A stretch of DNA of 26,929 nucleotides, taken from positions 1-26,929 of the forward strand of contig JBGPLR010000001.1 in the NCBI GenBank assembly GCA_041486545.1, written 5' to 3'. How positions within the stretch are numbered: the first letter of the stretch is position 1; each line of letters begins with the position of its first letter. The position numbers were made by a program, and so were the translations under genes. Below the pieces are notes generated by a model. The model ran no database searches. It was not told the DNA's origin and was given only the letters and a program-made list of their open reading frames with translations. Shown here piece by piece: positions 20,558 through 25,095 of the stretch. The stretch is from Terriglobia bacterium. GTDB lineage: Bacteria > Acidobacteriota > Terriglobia > Terriglobales > Acidobacteriaceae.

Positions 20558-20589
20558 CAATAAACACGGGCGGCACCCATGTGCCGCCC
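20558..20589 (-). terminator. Probable terminator hairpin after the kinase-like gene
   Basis: Perfect 9-bp stem gggcggcac (20568-20576) / gtgccgccc (20581-20589) with a 4-nt loop, followed by GTGTTTATTG on the minus strand, 23 nt after the stop. Confidence 0.65.
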
Positions 20590-20612
20590 ACGGCCAGACG
20601 CCCGGAAACTTT

Positions 20613-22718
20613 CTACCGGGCGAGAGATTTGGAGATTTTGATCCGGTCGTCAATCCCCACAATTGCGTTTTCGTGCCACGGCTTGTAACCGTCCTTTTGC
20701 AGCACGATGTCGTAGTTGCCGGCTTCCACTTCAATCTCCAGCGGAGTGGTTTTTTGCAGCGCTAAACCGTTGATAAGAACCTGCGCGCCTTTCGGCTCGC
20801 TCTTGATTTCAATGCGCGACATACCTTGCGCCGATCCCCCACTGTTGAAGATCTTGCCTACGCCGCCGCCTTTCACTTTGATGTTGTCCGTGCGGCCCGC
20901 CACCATCAAGTTTGGTGCATAGCCAGCCGCCTGCCCCGCAACCAGATTGATTTGCGTGTTGGCGTCCAGATAGCCGGGCTTGCGGACGGCAATGCTGTGC
21001 GCCGCAGGATCAAGCATCAATTCCGTGGGCGTCGCCTTGCCGGTGTCACGGCCATCCACAAATATGCTGGCGCCCGCAGGCGTGCTGGCGACGTTCACAA
21101 ATCCTTTGACCGCGTTGAGGCGGACGTCAAGATTGGCGCGGCCACCGGCGCTGACTTGTATGCTGCGCGTTTCCGATGTGTACCCTGGCCGGCTGAACGT
21201 GGCTTTGTACGTGCCGGGGCTCAGTGGTCCTACAACTTGCGGCGTCTTCCAGGATTGGCCCGCTCGTCCTTCAATTTCCACGGTAGCTCCGGACGGAGTG
21301 GACGTAACCGCAAGTTGGCCTTCCGCGGCCGTAGTCGGGGCCGGCTGGGTCATGACTTGCGGCACACGTGCCGCGTTTCTGGCCGCTTTGCTGGAACGCG
21401 TCCGGCCGGAAGACTGCGGTTCCTCGGAAACTGTTGCCACCGGCTGGTTCTGCGTAAACGGCGGTGTGTTCGCGGCCGGCGTCCTTGCGCCCGGCGTCGT
21501 CGCGTGTGGCGCGGGCGCCTGTCCAACTTGGGATTCCACCGCAAGATCGCTCGGCTTTCGCTGGAAGAACATGGCCAGCGCGCCGACCACCAGCAGTCCT
21601 CCCACCACAGCGCCCACCAGCTTCCAGTGGTTGGATGTGTTTACCGTCACCCTCGCTGAAGTCGGCGGAGGCGGCACGCGGCTCTTGGTCGTGCCCGGAC
21701 TGGTCGCAGTCTTTGGCGGCGTCGAATTGGCGTTGAACTGCGCCGCGGAAAACGATCCCGTCCCAAACTGGTTTGCCGAAAACTGGCCTGTGGAGTTTGC
21801 AGTTGGAACTTTTCCTGTAGCCGGCTTCACCGGCGCCGTGCGCGGCTCCCTCATGGCCTGTTCCAGCGCGGCGACCAACTGTTGTCCGCTCTGGAAACGC
21901 TCTGCCGGGTTCTTGGAAAGCCCTTTCAGAATCACTCGGGAAATCGCTTCCGGCACGCGTCCGTTCGCTACGTTGAGCGGATGCGGCATGGAGTCCGTGA
22001 TGGCGCGGTCTACTTCGCCCAGATGCTTGCCGTAAAACGGGCTGCGCGTGGTGTACAACTCGTACAGAATCGTCGATACGGTGAACCAGTTGCCCGCACG
22101 GTCCGCCGGCTTGTTCTTGACTTCTTCCGGTGAAAGATACGGCGCGTTTTCCAGCTTCTTGACCGGCGTTTGTGAAAGCAGGTTCTTGTCCCGCAGCAGC
22201 CCAAAATCCAGGACTTTCAACGTGCCATCGGGCAGCAATTTGATGTTGGTCGGATTCAAGAAATGGTGGACTACGCCCTTGCTGTGAGCAAAGTCCAAGG
22301 CCGCGCAAAGCTTTTTGGCGATGGCCAGCACTTCATTCAGGTCCGGCGTGCGCGCCGCCATCACCTCTTTCAGGTTTTGGCCCTCTACGAACTCCGCCGT
22401 TACGAAAACGGTGAAATCCTTGTAGCCGCAGGTGTACAGATGCGCGATATTCGGATGGTCCAGCGCACTGGCAGCCCGGGCTTCGGCCACGATCCGGTTC
22501 AGCAGTTCGCTGACGTCGTCCAGCCATTGCGGTACCTCAAACTGGCGCAGCGCGGTCACCCGCTCGGTAAGCGGACTTCTGGCCTGGTGGACCACGCCAA
22601 TGCTGCCCCGCGGCAACTCCTTCACCAGTTCAAGGCGGTCCGTGCGCGGAGTGGCAGACGTGCCTGTCGCGGCAGGCGTGGCGGCATCCTCGGGAGTCGT
22701 TAATATGTTCTCTTGCAT
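20613..22718 (-). CDS. Membrane-anchored Hanks-type kinase-fold protein (probable pseudokinase) with three C-terminal PEGA domains
   Basis: Kinase-fold landmarks LDHPNI, LKVLDFG, YLSPE and ERFQS. One TM (WKLVGAVVGGLLVVGALAMFF). Three PEGA-like repeats (VTSTPSGATV..PGY; VASTPAGASI..PGY; IKSEPKGAQV..DGY). Catalytic loop reads HHFLNPTN. Confidence 0.9.
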   Translation of the reverse strand: MQENILTTPEDAATPAATGTSATPRTDRLELVKELPRGSIGVVHQARSPLTERVTALRQFEVPQWLDDVSELLNRIVAEARAASALDHPNIAHLYTCGYKDFTVFVTAEFVEGQNLKEVMAARTPDLNEVLAIAKKLCAALDFAHSKGVVHHFLNPTNIKLLPDGTLKVLDFGLLRDKNLLSQTPVKKLENAPYLSPEEVKNKPADRAGNWFTVSTILYELYTTRSPFYGKHLGEVDRAITDSMPHPLNVANGRVPEAISRVILKGLSKNPAERFQSGQQLVAALEQAMREPRTAPVKPATGKVPTANSTGQFSANQFGTGSFSAAQFNANSTPPKTATSPGTTKSRVPPPPTSARVTVNTSNHWKLVGAVVGGLLVVGALAMFFQRKPSDLAVESQVGQAPAPHATTPGARTPAANTPPFTQNQPVATVSEEPQSSGRTRSSKAARNAARVPQVMTQPAPTTAAEGQLAVTSTPSGATVEIEGRAGQSWKTPQVVGPLSPGTYKATFSRPGYTSETRSIQVSAGGRANLDVRLNAVKGFVNVASTPAGASIFVDGRDTGKATPTELMLDPAAHSIAVRKPGYLDANTQINLVAGQAAGYAPNLMVAGRTDNIKVKGGGVGKIFNSGGSAQGMSRIEIKSEPKGAQVLINGLALQKTTPLEIEVEAGNYDIVLQKDGYKPWHENAIVGIDDRIKISKSLAR

Positions 22719-22892: not shown

Positions 22893-23879
22893 TCAGTTCG
22901 GCAGTCGCCAATTCACTACCTGAACCTCTGAACGGCCCACCTTTCTTGATTTTCCCATAGCCAGATCAAGCTTATAGATATCAGTCACTAAGTCAGGATC
23001 CACCCATTGATGGAAAAGCAACTGTTTTCCGTCTGGTGACCACACAACCGGAAAGAACAGCGGGCCGCGGCCCCTCCCGGCGCCCTGCTTGCCCACGGTA
23101 AAGAGCAATCGTTTTTCTCCCGTGCTCTCCCGGATGGCGAAGCAGCTCTTCCGGTTGCGCGTGAAGTAGGCGACGTCATCGCCCACCGGGGACCACGAAG
23201 GCTCCACTCCTTCGGCCAGCTCTTTCACGCCTTTCGTCTCTAGATCCACGATTCCGATTGCGCCGGCTGAGCTGTTCCCGGCTCCCATGCCGCGCCGCCG
23301 AAACTCCAGCGCCAGCCGTCTGCCCCCAGGCGCCCACGATGGCGTCGAATAGTTGGAAACCTGGTAGCCCACATCCTTAATTTCGAGCGTTGGATGCAGT
23401 CGCTCGGCGGACTGGGCTGGTTCCGGAGCAATCAGGTAAATGCTGCGGCCCTGTGCAGGGTCCCCATCAGCGACTGCGGCCAGCCGGCTGTCATCCGGCG
23501 ACCAGGCAACACTCCAAACGGCCGCTGCCTCAAAGACATCTACGGATTTTCCCGTTGCCACGTCAAAAACAGCGATGGCCTCCCGTCTTGGCGTCCCGGC
23601 CAGCACGTGCACGTAAGCGATTCTTTCTCCCCGATGTGACAGCGCCGGCGTTGCGCGATGAGCGCAGCAGCCCTTGATCTCGGCCATCCGCGTCTCCAAC
23701 GCCAGCGGGACAGACTCGCCTTTCTTCATCAGCATGACAACATTGGCATTCGAGTAGTAGGCCAGCAGCTCGGTGTCCGCGCCCTTGGAAAAAGCCGTCA
23801 GCTCGGGAAGTCCGGGGAACTGTGTGGCTTTGTCCGGGGTCTGGAGCAAGGCCATAGCAATGATCAGCACCGTCCTCAA
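22893..23879 (-). CDS. Exported TolB-like / WD40-type beta-propeller protein
   Basis: Repeated propeller-blade motifs (ALSHRGERIAY, AWSPDDSRLA, SWAPGGRRLA, SWSPVGDDVAY, VWSPDGKQLLF). TTG 23879 is 7 nt after AAGGGAG and overlaps the upstream stop (TTGA). Short hydrophobic N-terminus. Confidence 0.8.
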   Translation of the reverse strand: MRTVLIIAMALLQTPDKATQFPGLPELTAFSKGADTELLAYYSNANVVMLMKKGESVPLALETRMAEIKGCCAHRATPALSHRGERIAYVHVLAGTPRREAIAVFDVATGKSVDVFEAAAVWSVAWSPDDSRLAAVADGDPAQGRSIYLIAPEPAQSAERLHPTLEIKDVGYQVSNYSTPSWAPGGRRLALEFRRRGMGAGNSSAGAIGIVDLETKGVKELAEGVEPSWSPVGDDVAYFTRNRKSCFAIRESTGEKRLLFTVGKQGAGRGRGPLFFPVVWSPDGKQLLFHQWVDPDLVTDIYKLDLAMGKSRKVGRSEVQVVNWRLPN

Positions 23880-24517
23880 GGCTTGGCTCCCTTGCGATCT
23901 TGGGAACTCGCGGTAGTGCCGTGGCCGCAATCGTGATGGGCCCGGAAGCCCGGAGCGCCCTTCATCTGCGGCGGCGTCATTCCCGCGCCACTCAGCAGGT
24001 CATAGACGTACGTATTACTGTTGTTGAAGCAGTTCTTGAAAGCCCGGTTGCGGTAATTCTCTGCGCATGAGTTACAAATCCCGCCGGCAATCTCTTTCGC
24101 CAGAAGCTTGATCTTCTCCGGTGTGGCATCCTTCACCGGCTTGCAATAGCCTCCGCGATCAGAGTTGTCAGCGCTCTGGTCCAGATTCGGCTGCTTGTTC
24201 ACGTTGTTGGCTTCCAGAGGATGGATCCCTGCAGTCTGCACCGGCGCCCCGAAACCCGGCACGATCACGCCGGCGGGAAAATCCACGTAACAATGGTGCA
24301 GCCTGCTGACAATCGTCAGATTCAGGCCCCGCAGCAGCGGGTTCCGCGAACTGCCCCACTTGGTCAGCGATCGGCAACAAACCTGAAGGTGGACTTCCGG
24401 CGTTGCAGCGGCCGTGGCCGGACCGCCCGCCTGGGCCGCTCCAAAGCCCGCGGTCACCAGCACCATGCTCATCGCCAGGGCGTCTCGTAGTCTTGGTCGT
24501 ACTCCAGCGTGTTGCAT
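23876..24517 (-). CDS. Secreted Cys-rich hypothetical protein with HCY...NSNT motif
   Basis: ATG 24517 is 6 nt after GGAGGT. Signal-like ...ALAMSMVLVTAGFGAAQA. 8 Cys in 213 aa. Translationally coupled to the next gene. Confidence 0.75.
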   Translation of the reverse strand: MQHAGVRPRLRDALAMSMVLVTAGFGAAQAGGPATAAATPEVHLQVCCRSLTKWGSSRNPLLRGLNLTIVSRLHHCYVDFPAGVIVPGFGAPVQTAGIHPLEANNVNKQPNLDQSADNSDRGGYCKPVKDATPEKIKLLAKEIAGGICNSCAENYRNRAFKNCFNNSNTYVYDLLSGAGMTPPQMKGAPGFRAHHDCGHGTTASSQDRKGAKP

Positions 24518-24549
24518 GCCATCACCTCCCAAAAAAGAAAAATTGCTTG

Positions 24550-25065
24550 TTAGATCAGTCCCAACCTATCTGGCCGCGCGCTTTTACTCTGGGGGATCTC
24601 CCGCAAGAGACAAGCTAGAGCGGCGATCGCCACAAAATTTACGCCAAATAGCCAGTTGGTAATTTCATCGGAAAACAGGAAATGTATGCCCGTTTCAACG
24701 TCGAAGCCGACGCGGATGTTTGGCGCAAGCTGGCTAACCATCACATAGACCCGCAGTCCGGTGTAAAACCCATCGAACGAAATGCCTGGCACAGTAAAGT
24801 TGAGGATCTGCGCAGTAAAAATGATTTTCGCCCACGTGAATGCTCTCGGATTTCCTTTCCACAGGGCAAGACCTGTCCAGACGCACCAACCAAAAAGTAG
24901 AATGAAAAGTCCAAGAATAGCCAGAGAAGGGCGCGGATGAATGCCCAGCTGCCTAAGGGTTTGAATTTCAGTCCACAGGCCCATGGCAATGCCTGCCAGA
25001 CCGCCAATAATCAACAGAAGAGAAATCAGCTTGACGCCCCAACCAACGTTCTTGCCGATGCTCAT
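24550..25065 (-). CDS. Hypothetical multi-pass membrane protein (171 aa)
   Basis: ATG 25065 follows GAGGGA. About 4 hydrophobic segments. Stop is 32 nt from the next start. Confidence 0.7.
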   Translation of the reverse strand: MSIGKNVGWGVKLISLLLIIGGLAGIAMGLWTEIQTLRQLGIHPRPSLAILGLFILLFGWCVWTGLALWKGNPRAFTWAKIIFTAQILNFTVPGISFDGFYTGLRVYVMVSQLAPNIRVGFDVETGIHFLFSDEITNWLFGVNFVAIAALACLLREIPQSKSARPDRLGLI

Positions 25066-25095
25066 CACTCCCTCACGCTCCAACCACTAAGTTCG

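What the first reader, a model, noticed from the sequence alone, without database searches (positions are those of the whole stretch)
20613..22718. Receptor-like pseudokinase: HRD replaced by HHF and the beta3 Lys by Arg, with intact TM and 3 PEGA domains
Seen: the catalytic loop reads HHFLNPTN (codons 22260-22268) instead of HRDLKPxN. VAIK reads TALRQ (Arg at 22545-22547). The Gly loop reads PRGSIG, the activation-loop GT is lost (LENAPYLSPEE), and the subdomain IX Asp reads N (AGNWFTV). DFG, the alphaC Glu and the open frame are kept. Established: the HRD Asp is the catalytic base and the beta3 Lys positions ATP. Inference: several independent substitutions in an otherwise intact gene point to a selected, catalytically dead signalling receptor that works by scaffolding or by heterodimerising with active PEGA kinases. 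Few such bacterial proteins are characterised.
Basis: partly seen in the sequence, partly recalled or inferred. Interest (0 to 1): 0.7.

Follow-up and report, generated by a model that had tools for sequence, protein, structure and literature searches.

The report
Conserved dead-kinase membrane receptor (PEGA)
This gene encodes a membrane receptor whose inner half has the fold of a Ser/Thr protein kinase but has lost the residues needed to transfer phosphate. It is kept under strong selection in one lineage of uncultured soil and sediment Acidobacteria, alongside an active sister kinase, so it is a real but unsurprising new family of bacterial pseudokinase.

Summary
ORF 20613-22718 (-) encodes a 701-aa protein with a Hanks kinase domain, one TM helix and three PEGA domains. 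The catalytic loop reads HHFLNPTN, the beta3 Lys is Arg58, GT of the P+1 loop is lost, and the subdomain IX Asp is Asn. DFG, the Mg-binding Asn, the alphaC Glu, SPE and the subdomain XI Arg are kept.

This is not decay or a sequencing error. All 121 sequences aligned (53-92% identity to the window protein) share these changes. The gene was found in single copy in 21 of 24 sampled species of the same GTDB genus. Kinase-domain dN/dS is 0.07-0.13, against 0.06 for the active paralog. Independent sediment assemblies carry the same frame. More distant relatives, with Ala or Cys at the catalytic-Asp position but still Arg at beta3, have the same architecture, and two of the three loci examined share neighbours with the window.

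The same genome holds a canonical paralog with the same architecture, in a conserved pair with an FHA-GAF-cyclase gene.

Best reading: a non-phosphotransferring, probably nucleotide-binding receptor that modulates that kinase pathway. The partnership is inferred, not shown. It fits none of the seven named bacterial pseudokinase families. I rate it a new variant of a known kind, of moderate interest.

The parts
20613..22718 (-). Whole gene: a 701-aa receptor-like pseudokinase (cytoplasmic kinase-like domain, one TM helix, three PEGA domains outside).
   Evidence: ORF list and translation; Pfam; 120 homologs of the same length and architecture.
21849..22637 (-). Pseudokinase domain, residues 28-290.
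   Evidence: Pkinase 96.9 bits. AF2 model has pTM 0.80 and its best Foldseek matches are PknB, Stk1, PknA and PknI. dN/dS is 0.07-0.13.
22596..22616 (-). Gly-rich loop L-P-R-G-S-I-G. The first Gly is replaced; the second and third are kept.
   Evidence: Alignment to StkP. G38 and G41 are kept in 118/121, with the other three rows gapped; position 36 varies (P/G/A/T/S/V).
22545..22547 (-). Arg58 in place of the beta3 (VAIK) Lys.
   Evidence: Aligned to the StkP and PknB Lys. Arg in 121/121 aligned sequences and in the distant relatives.
22419..22433 (-). Family-specific invariant T-C-G-Y-K motif on the back of the N-lobe. Thr96 occupies the position of PknB Asp76 in the back-to-back dimer interface.
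   Evidence: Invariant in alignment A1. Alignment to PknB. The role of D76 and L33 is taken from PMC13434768.
22245..22268 (-). Catalytic loop HHFLNPTN in place of HRDLKPxN. The catalytic Asp is Phe153 and the Lys is Asn155; the Mg-binding Asn158 is kept.
   Evidence: Distant relatives have Ala or Cys at the Asp position.
22125..22208 (-). Activation segment from D171-F-G to S-P-E. It is highly conserved and lacks the GT of the P+1 loop.
   Evidence: Conservation line. The AF2 model has low pLDDT here.
22083..22097 (-). Subdomain IX, A-G-N-W-F. Asn210 replaces the conserved alphaF Asp.
   Evidence: Alignment; Asn in 121/121.
22005..22025 (-). Invariant H-L-G-E-V-D-R motif in the alphaG region. 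Gly234 and Asp237 sit at the positions of PknB Val222 and Ala225 in the front-to-front interface.
   Evidence: Invariant columns in A1. Alignment to PknB wild type and the V222D mutant. PMC13434768.
21564..21626 (-). Single transmembrane helix, residues 365-385, rich in small residues.
   Evidence: Hydropathy scan. A single strong TM segment is present in all 121 sequences, 66 of them with GxxxG.
21111..21320 (-). PEGA domain 1 (residues 467-536).
   Evidence: PF08308 match.
20928..21098 (-). PEGA domain 2 (residues 541-597).
   Evidence: PF08308 match.
20616..20819 (-). PEGA domain 3 (residues 634-701).
   Evidence: PF08308 match.
20565..20592 (-). Terminator-like hairpin (12-pair stem, 9 G-C) about 20 nt after the stop codon. 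It suggests a transcript that ends before bipA.
   Evidence: Consensus scan. This is a pattern match only, and the number of such hits in the region equals the shuffled expectation.

Best explanation
The gene encodes a single-pass membrane receptor of the Hanks (eukaryote-like Ser/Thr kinase) fold that has permanently lost phosphotransfer chemistry. The catalytic base Asp is Phe, the catalytic-loop Lys is Asn, the beta3 Lys is Arg, the P+1 loop GT is lost and the alphaF Asp is Asn. The residues that hold nucleotide and metal are kept: two glycines of the Gly loop, the beta2 Val, the VAIK Ala, the alphaC Glu, the catalytic-loop Asn and the DFG Asp. It also keeps an intact TM helix and three extracytoplasmic PEGA domains. 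All of this is shown.

It is a full-length paralog of a canonical PEGA Ser/Thr kinase in the same genome. That kinase is in a conserved gene pair with an FHA-GAF-adenylate/guanylate cyclase. This too is shown.

Inferred: the pseudokinase senses an envelope or extracellular cue through its PEGA domains. It probably binds nucleotide as a conformational cofactor rather than a substrate. It signals without catalysis, most likely by pairing with the active PEGA kinase, through the TM/ectodomain or through its remodelled N-lobe and alphaG surfaces. In that way it would activate, inhibit or scaffold the kinase-to-FHA-cyclase pathway, much as KSR, HER3 or STRAD act on their active partners.
For: - Motif losses and retentions were read from alignments to solved kinases and are fixed in 121 sequences.
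- The same pattern (Arg at beta3; F, A or C at the Asp position; N or T at the Lys position) holds in relatives at 49-58% identity with the same architecture.
- Purifying selection: kinase-domain dN/dS is 0.07 against the closest ortholog (dS 0.34) and 0.126 against G442. The active paralog in the same genome pair gives 0.059.
- The gene is single copy in 21 of 24 species sampled in the genus; the three misses are 51-89% complete. The canonical paralog is present in 29 of 30.
- The two paralogs align end to end: 29% identity over 682 residues, E 1e-91. In the kinase-domain tree the pseudokinase clade (100/100) joins the PEGA-kinase clade (98/91) rather than the genome's other four kinases.
- The stem branch is 3.54 substitutions per site for the kinase domain against 1.33 for the PEGA region. 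This fits a burst of change in the kinase domain.
- The canonical paralog is followed 12 bp later by an FHA-GAF-cyclase gene. That pair is kept in 11 of 11 genus loci and in three other genera.
- Independent sediment assemblies span the gene in frame.
- A beta3 Arg is compatible with nucleotide binding in KSR1 and EphB6 (PMC12599244).
Against: - No direct evidence exists for any interaction.
- The two genes are not neighbours: contig C1 versus contig C59.
- The residues of both PknB-type dimer interfaces are replaced in the pseudokinase. L33 becomes T/Q, D76 becomes an invariant T, V222 becomes G and A225 becomes D. The last of these resembles the A225E substitution, part of a double mutant (V22D and A225E) that altered the StkP phosphorylation pattern and cell shape in vivo but still left dimers in solution. 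A classical back-to-back or front-to-front pairing is therefore not simply inherited.
- The ectodomains of the two paralogs share only about 30-36% identity, so they may not see the same cue.
- Many other genera keep the canonical kinase-cyclase pair without any pseudokinase, so the pathway does not need it.
- Nucleotide binding is inferred from conservation only.
Confidence: 0.5

Rival explanations
1. It is an autonomous non-catalytic receptor or scaffold that does not work through the canonical PEGA paralog. For example, its conserved activation segment and alphaG motif (H-L-G-E-V-D-R) would dock a different cytoplasmic client, or it would act as an envelope-anchoring or assembly factor like EssB/YukC.
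For: - The gene stands alone. It has a terminator-like hairpin after it and no conserved co-directional partner except the housekeeping bipA.
- Its most invariant family-specific patches (T-C-G-Y-K and H-L-G-E-V-D-R) differ from those of the canonical paralog.
- The PknB-type interface residues are replaced.
- The pseudokinase clade is not nested within the canonical clade of the genus.
- Known bacterial membrane pseudokinases such as EssB/YukC act as structural organisers (PMC12599244).
Against: - No candidate client gene is syntenic with it.
- The upstream genes differ between species.
- Retention of the metal- and nucleotide-binding residues is not needed for a purely structural role.
Confidence: 0.25
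2. It is an atypical but active enzyme. It would bind nucleotide with Arg58, Glu79, Asn158 and Asp171 and catalyse weak phosphotransfer, ATP hydrolysis or another nucleotide-dependent reaction. It would use a relocated base, for example the conserved acid-base pair at DFG+6/+7 (Asp177-Lys178).
For: - DFG Asp, the catalytic-loop Asn, the alphaC Glu and two Gly-loop glycines are invariant or nearly so.
- An acidic residue followed by a basic residue just after DFG is kept even in the distant relatives: RDK, REK, HDR, QDR, PER.
- There are precedents of 'pseudokinases' with migrated residues or other chemistries, such as WNK, POMK, SelO and SidJ.
Against: - Five separate catalytic elements are lost together.
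- The catalytic-base position holds chemically inert Phe, Ala or Cys.
- The GT of the P+1 loop, which positions a Ser/Thr substrate, is gone.
- The kinase domain evolves about twice as fast, in dN/dS, as that of the active paralog.
Confidence: 0.13
3. It is a decaying gene or a sequencing or assembly artefact peculiar to this MAG.
For: The genome is a fragmented MAG: 580 contigs, 76% complete.
Against: - The same substitutions are found in 121 aligned sequences and in 21 other species genomes.
- dN/dS is 0.07-0.17 over the whole gene.
- Independent assemblies from other studies span the gene in frame. The only length difference is an in-frame 6-nt one in the low-complexity linker.
Confidence: 0.01

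Closest known systems
Canonical PEGA-ectodomain Hanks Ser/Thr kinase of the same genome (G000 contig C59:2854-4956, P0122) and its orthologs across the family
   Same: Same length (700 versus 701 aa) and same order of parts: kinase domain, low-complexity linker, one TM helix, three PEGA domains. The two align end to end and group together in the kinase-domain tree.
   Different: The paralog has every catalytic motif: GxGxxG, VALK, HRDVKPAN, DFG, GTPNYMAPE and the subdomain IX Asp. It scores 202 bits on Pkinase against 97. It keeps PknB-like residues at the N-lobe interface positions. It is paired with an FHA-GAF-cyclase gene.
ActPs2 and DYD bacterial pseudokinase families (O'Boyle et al.; PMC12599244, bioRxiv 10.1101/2025.01.12.632604)
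   Same: Membrane-associated Hanks-fold pseudokinases with a conserved Arg in place of the beta3 Lys, proposed to retain nucleotide binding.
   Different: ActPs2 has Asn at the HRD Asp, a deleted DFG, a 32-aa insertion and a roughly 250-aa insertion, and is actinobacterial. DYD lacks the alphaC Glu and has DYD in place of DFG; the atlas does not list it among the families that have lost the HRD Asp. It is found in Actinobacteria and Firmicutes. The protein here keeps DFG and the alphaC Glu, has Phe or Ala at the Asp position, has no insertions, carries PEGA domains and is acidobacterial. Neither paper mentions PEGA or Acidobacteria.
KSR1/2 (also HER3 and STRADalpha): eukaryotic pseudokinases that regulate an active partner kinase allosterically
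   Same: Arg replaces the beta3 Lys, as in KSR, while the nucleotide pocket is otherwise kept. An active paralog exists in the same cell. KSR1 structures appear among the fold matches at ranks 37 and 48.
   Different: There is no specific sequence relationship. According to the review, KSR and EphB6 retain ATP binding despite the beta3 Lys-to-Arg change. Partner binding here is not demonstrated.
PknB/StkP PASTA kinases (M. tuberculosis, S. pneumoniae)
   Same: Best sequence and structure matches for the kinase-like domain. Same receptor topology: kinase inside, one TM helix, repeated sensor domains outside.
   Different: They are active enzymes with PASTA rather than PEGA ectodomains. The NCBIfam PknB_PASTA_kin score is 163 against a cut-off of 450. 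The interface residues L33, D76, V222 and A225 are not conserved here.
EssB/YukC and the MviN pseudokinase domain (ActPs3)
   Same: Bacterial membrane proteins with a non-catalytic kinase fold used for assembly or regulation.
   Different: Those have lost all three catalytic motifs and, for the MviN domain, ATP and Mg binding. Here the metal and nucleotide ligands are conserved.

Membership tests
Protein kinase superfamily, Hanks type (Pfam PF00069 Pkinase) | Significant match to the Pkinase profile over the full bilobal domain. | tested here: met
   96.9 bits against a cut-off of 31.7, residues 31-276 on profile positions 3-253 of 263. The AF2 model matches PknB and Stk1 with TM-scores of 0.72-0.78.
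Pseudokinase (sequence definition: lacks at least one of the VAIK Lys, HRD Asp and DFG Asp) | Absence of the beta3 Lys and/or the catalytic Asp and/or the DFG Asp. | tested here: met
   The beta3 Lys is Arg58 and the HRD Asp is Phe153. The DFG Asp171 is kept.
Pseudokinase (biochemical definition) | No phosphotransfer activity in vitro. | not testable with these tools
   This needs purified protein. It is inferred only from the loss of the base, of the Lys and of the P+1 GT.
PEGA-domain proteins (PF08308) | Matches to the PEGA profile above the gathering score. | tested here: met
   Three stretches, 128.6 bits in total against a cut-off of 20.8.
ActPs2 bacterial pseudokinases | Arg at beta3, plus Asn at the HRD Asp, plus a deleted DFG, plus the beta3-alphaC and activation-loop insertions. 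| tested here: not met
   Only the beta3 Arg is shared. DFG is intact, the Asp position is Phe, and there are no insertions relative to PknB.
DYD bacterial pseudokinases | Arg at beta3, loss of the alphaC Glu, and a DYD motif replacing DFG. | tested here: not met
   The alphaC Glu is kept in 120/121 and DFG is kept. Two of the 121 aligned sequences, and the distant relative P0134, read DYG, which is not DYD.
PknB/Stk1 PASTA kinases (NCBIfam NF033483) | Score above the curated cut-off, and PASTA ectodomains. | tested here: not met
   163.3 bits against a cut-off of 450, with no PASTA domains.
Kinase/pseudokinase signalling pair (KSR-RAF-like logic) | Physical and functional coupling of the pseudokinase to an active paralog. 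| not tested
   Only co-occurrence in the genus and shared architecture are shown. The single complex-prediction job gave no verdict and is listed only under Tried and rejected.

The most novel reading that the evidence does not exclude
The family is not dead but rewired. With Arg58, Glu79, Asn158 and Asp171 it would bind a nucleotide, and with the conserved acid-base pair just after DFG (Asp177-Lys178) and the invariant alphaG motif it would perform a non-kinase reaction. Alternatively it would act as a nucleotide-gated switch that couples an envelope signal read by the PEGA domains directly to the FHA-GAF-cyclase (cyclic-nucleotide) output of its active paralog. That would be a bacterial counterpart of KSR/HER3-type allostery evolved independently.
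Probability: 0.12. Interest if true: 0.7.

Novelty: new variant of a known kind. Interest (0 to 1): 0.42.

Why it matters
Bacterial pseudokinases are catalogued, but almost none has been studied experimentally. The current atlas names seven families, mostly actinobacterial, and does not mention Acidobacteria or PEGA receptors.

This family offers a clean natural pair: an active receptor kinase and a dead copy with the same architecture in the same cell. It also offers a plausible read-out, the FHA-GAF-cyclase next to the active copy, and a motif pattern that predicts nucleotide binding without catalysis. That makes the question 'do bacterial pseudokinases regulate active paralogs allosterically, as in eukaryotes?' testable with a handful of constructs.

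It also shows that the catalytic-base position drifted (Phe, Ala or Cys) while Arg at beta3, the Asn and DFG stayed fixed. This separates the residues that are still needed from those that are not.

It is not a new principle. The same scan has already met PEGA-type membrane pseudokinases in other phyla.

Tried and rejected
- **Complex prediction.** One job was run on the canonical kinase domain (A2) against the pseudokinase domain (A1). The result was no verdict, with scores of 0.00 in both runs. It is not used as evidence either way.
- **RNA evidence.** No RNA holder was listed among public runs, so expression was not assessed.
- **Motif pattern in the phylum.** The pattern H[HN]FLNPxN was searched in 400 genomes of the phylum. 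It found only the window and one hit whose matched DNA contains an in-frame TAA. The pattern was too narrow and would miss the H-x-A relatives found later.
- **Decay or strain-specific error.** Rejected.
- **Functional link to bipA.** The adjacency is constant within the genus (6 of 6 loci) and is partly kept in a distant relative. However, the intergenic distance varies from about 180 to 600 bp, a terminator-like hairpin follows the pseudokinase gene, and the other housekeeping neighbours are conserved as well. I therefore read the adjacency as inherited synteny, not as an operon.
- **Link to the upstream beta-propeller and envelope genes (22893-25083).** The propeller was not found beside the five complete ortholog loci checked (a sixth locus is cut off on that side). 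Only the 177-aa gene recurs, in one locus.
- **Recent within-genus duplication of the canonical paralog.** Not supported. In both trees the pseudokinase clade lies outside the canonical clade of the genus. The long stem branch makes its exact attachment unreliable, so the timing is left open.
- **G404 hit (39% identity, one in-frame TAA).** It is closer to the canonical type, at 42.5% against 37%, so it is not an ortholog.
- **Literature.** Searches for PEGA-domain kinases or pseudokinases found nothing relevant.
Full report
**Observation**

The minus-strand ORF 20613-22718 is open and encodes 701 residues. Pfam finds a protein kinase domain at residues 31-276 (96.9 bits) and three PEGA domains. 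A hydropathy scan gives a single TM helix at residues 365-385.

- HHFLNPTN (151-158; HHF = 22260-22268) lies on HRDLKPxN.
- Arg58 (22545-22547) lies on the beta3 Lys.
- L-P-R-G-S-I-G lies on the Gly loop.
- ENAPYLSPE lies on GTxxYxSPE.
- Asn210 lies on the subdomain IX Asp.
- DFG (171-173), Glu79, Asn158 and Arg274 are intact.

**Not decay, not error**

A word-indexed search returned 120 full-length homologs of 53-92% identity. All have the kinase-plus-PEGA architecture, and the names their sources give point to Terriglobales, 'Candidatus Angelobacter' and Acidobacteriia MAGs.

In an alignment of these 120 homologs with the window protein (121 sequences):
- The beta3 Arg is present in 121/121.
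- The HRD Asp position is Phe in 118, Tyr in 2 and Leu in 1.
- The catalytic-loop Lys position is Asn in 113.
- The subdomain IX position is Asn in 121/121.
- The DFG segment is conserved at 90% or more and is invariant in alignment A1.
- The alphaC Glu (120/121), SPE and the subdomain XI Arg are invariant or nearly so.

Nei-Gojobori dN/dS for the kinase-like domain is 0.070 against the closest ortholog (93% amino-acid identity overall, 95% in the kinase-like domain; dS 0.34, so not saturated). It is 0.126 against the ortholog in genome G442. The active paralog's kinase domain in the same two genomes gives 0.059. The PEGA region is constrained to a similar degree (0.10-0.17), and the low-complexity linkers less so.

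Contigs from two other sediment studies span the whole gene with 34-35 base differences and one in-frame 6-nt length difference at 21508, in the linker. None of the listed differences falls in the catalytic motifs.

**Distribution**

The window's genome is a 76%-complete MAG of 580 contigs.
- An ortholog (59-82% identity in the kinase domain, single copy) was found in 21 of 24 sampled species of the same GTDB genus. The three misses are 51%, 68% and 89% complete.
- It was not found in 40 other genera of the family, where the best hit was 39% and of canonical type.
- It was not found in 16 genomes of a second family of the same order.
- It was not found in 398 non-genus genomes of the class at E <= 1e-75. 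Only six candidates per genome were scored there.

An exhaustive profile search of 1.8 billion representatives nevertheless found more distant relatives at 49-58% identity. They have the same kinase-plus-3xPEGA architecture. They read H-N/Q/H/Y-A/C-L-N/T-P/L-x-N with Arg at beta3, DFG or DYG, SPE and the subdomain IX Asn. One member of these clusters is named as a Terriglobales MAG.

Two of the three distant loci examined keep pieces of the window's neighbourhood, namely bipA and the MFS gene in one and GcvT-DUF1844-MBL in the other; the third has a different context. They look like positional orthologs. The family is therefore older than the genus but rare among the genomes sampled. The catalytic-base position has drifted among inert residues while Arg58, Asn158 and Asp171 stayed fixed.

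**The paralog and its pathway**

The genome has six Pkinase domains. Five are fully canonical.

One of them, on contig C59 (P0122, 700 aa), has the same kinase-TM-3xPEGA layout. It aligns with the pseudokinase over 682 residues at 29% identity, E 1e-91. It is present in 29 of 30 genus genomes.

In a kinase-domain tree the pseudokinases form one clade (100/100) on a stem of 3.54 substitutions per site. That clade joins the PEGA-kinase clade (98/91) rather than the other four kinases. In a PEGA-region tree the stem is 1.33, and the clade is again outside the canonical clade of the genus. The duplication is thus not recent, and its date is unresolved because of the long branch.

The canonical gene is followed after 12 bp by an FHA-GAF-adenylate/guanylate-cyclase gene. 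This pair is kept in 11 of 11 genus loci and in three other genera. One of those three, L008, is from the unpublished genome G402, and the claim stands on the other two without it. Locus L008 (G402) is one of the 'other genera' rows in both trees; locus L018 (G421) is one only in the kinase-domain tree. The groupings reported do not depend on either.

**Context of the pseudokinase**

In six of six genus genomes examined, the gene lies directly upstream of bipA/typA on the same strand. The housekeeping block MFS-ribF-MBL-DUF1844-gcvT then follows beyond bipA in the four loci long and syntenic enough to show it. Other genera have bipA without the pseudokinase. A terminator-like hairpin follows the stop codon, and the intergenic distance varies. 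I read the adjacency as inherited synteny and the gene as monocistronic. The upstream genes differ between species.

**Structure and surfaces**

An AF2 model of residues 20-295 (pLDDT 77.6, pTM 0.80) has a standard bilobal kinase fold. Confidence is low in the activation segment and around the alphaG motif. The best structural matches are PknB, Stk1, PknA and PknI, and KSR1 appears at ranks 37 and 48.

I mapped the residues whose mutation disrupts the PknB/StkP back-to-back interface (L33D, D76A) and front-to-front interface (V222D, A225E). The residue roles come from PMC13434768 and from the PDB titles, and the mapping uses the alignment:
- L33 corresponds to Thr51, which is Gln in most orthologs.
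- D76 corresponds to the invariant Thr of a family-specific T-C-G-Y-K motif.
- V222 and A225 correspond to the invariant Gly and Asp of H-L-G-E-V-D-R.
- The canonical paralog keeps Arg, Ile and Asp at the N-lobe positions.

Both classical interfaces are therefore remodelled and then frozen in the pseudokinase. This argues for a specific, different protein contact rather than a passive relic.

**Mechanism**

Shown: loss of the base, the Lys and the P+1 GT; retention of the nucleotide and metal ligands; selection; the existence of the paralog; and the kinase-cyclase pairing.

Inferred: nucleotide binding without transfer, by analogy with KSR1 and EphB6, which carry the same Lys-to-Arg change (PMC12599244); and non-catalytic modulation of the active PEGA kinase pathway.

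The direction of any effect (activator, inhibitor, decoy or scaffold) and the partner are unknown. Rival readings are an autonomous scaffold, an atypical enzyme, and an artefact. The last is refuted.

**Comparison with what is known**

The bacterial Ser/Thr kinase atlas and its review name seven pseudokinase families: ActPs1-3, GLW, CP1, DYD and DLHK. Neither text mentions PEGA or Acidobacteria.

ActPs2 and DYD share the beta3 Arg but fail on the other defining features. This is therefore an undescribed family-level variant of a known kind.

Earlier notes of this scan report PEGA-type membrane pseudokinases in other phyla, among them an adjacent active/dead pair in Burkholderiaceae. The theme recurs, and that lowers the surprise. 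I did not check those notes.

**Verdict**

It is a new variant of a known kind, of moderate interest (0.42).

Noticed in passing
G000 contig C59:1154-4956 (locus L054): A canonical PEGA Ser/Thr kinase is followed after 12 bp by a 562-aa FHA-GAF-adenylate/guanylate cyclase. The pair is conserved in 11 of 11 genus loci and in three other genera. It links a receptor kinase to cyclic-nucleotide output through a phospho-Thr reader.
   Followed up: partly
window 21508 (ectodomain linker of the pseudokinase): Two independent sediment assemblies carry an in-frame 6-nt deletion here. Most of their 34-35 base differences lie in the linker and PEGA half, and almost none in the kinase-like domain.
   Followed up: partly
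window 22893-25083: The upstream beta-propeller (PD40-like) gene and two genes without Pfam matches were already noted by the scan as an envelope module. The propeller is not found beside the pseudokinase in the other genus genomes checked. Only the 177-aa gene recurs, in one locus.
   Followed up: partly
P0128, P0129, P0144, P0191 (hits): Giant proteins of about 2,450-2,600 aa carry five or six separate kinase-domain matches each. They rank high only because their domain scores add up. I did not look at them further.
   Followed up: no
G404:C114:25613-26389 (locus L047): A PEGA-kinase-like open frame of 704 aa has one in-frame TAA inside the kinase domain. It is of canonical type (42.5% to P0122). 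It could be a broken gene or an assembly error.
   Followed up: partly
window 22635-22649 (residues 24-28): A conserved P-R-T motif lies just before the kinase-like domain (Pro24 and Arg25 at 90% or more). Thr26 could be a phospho-acceptor or an FHA docking site. This is speculation only.
   Followed up: no
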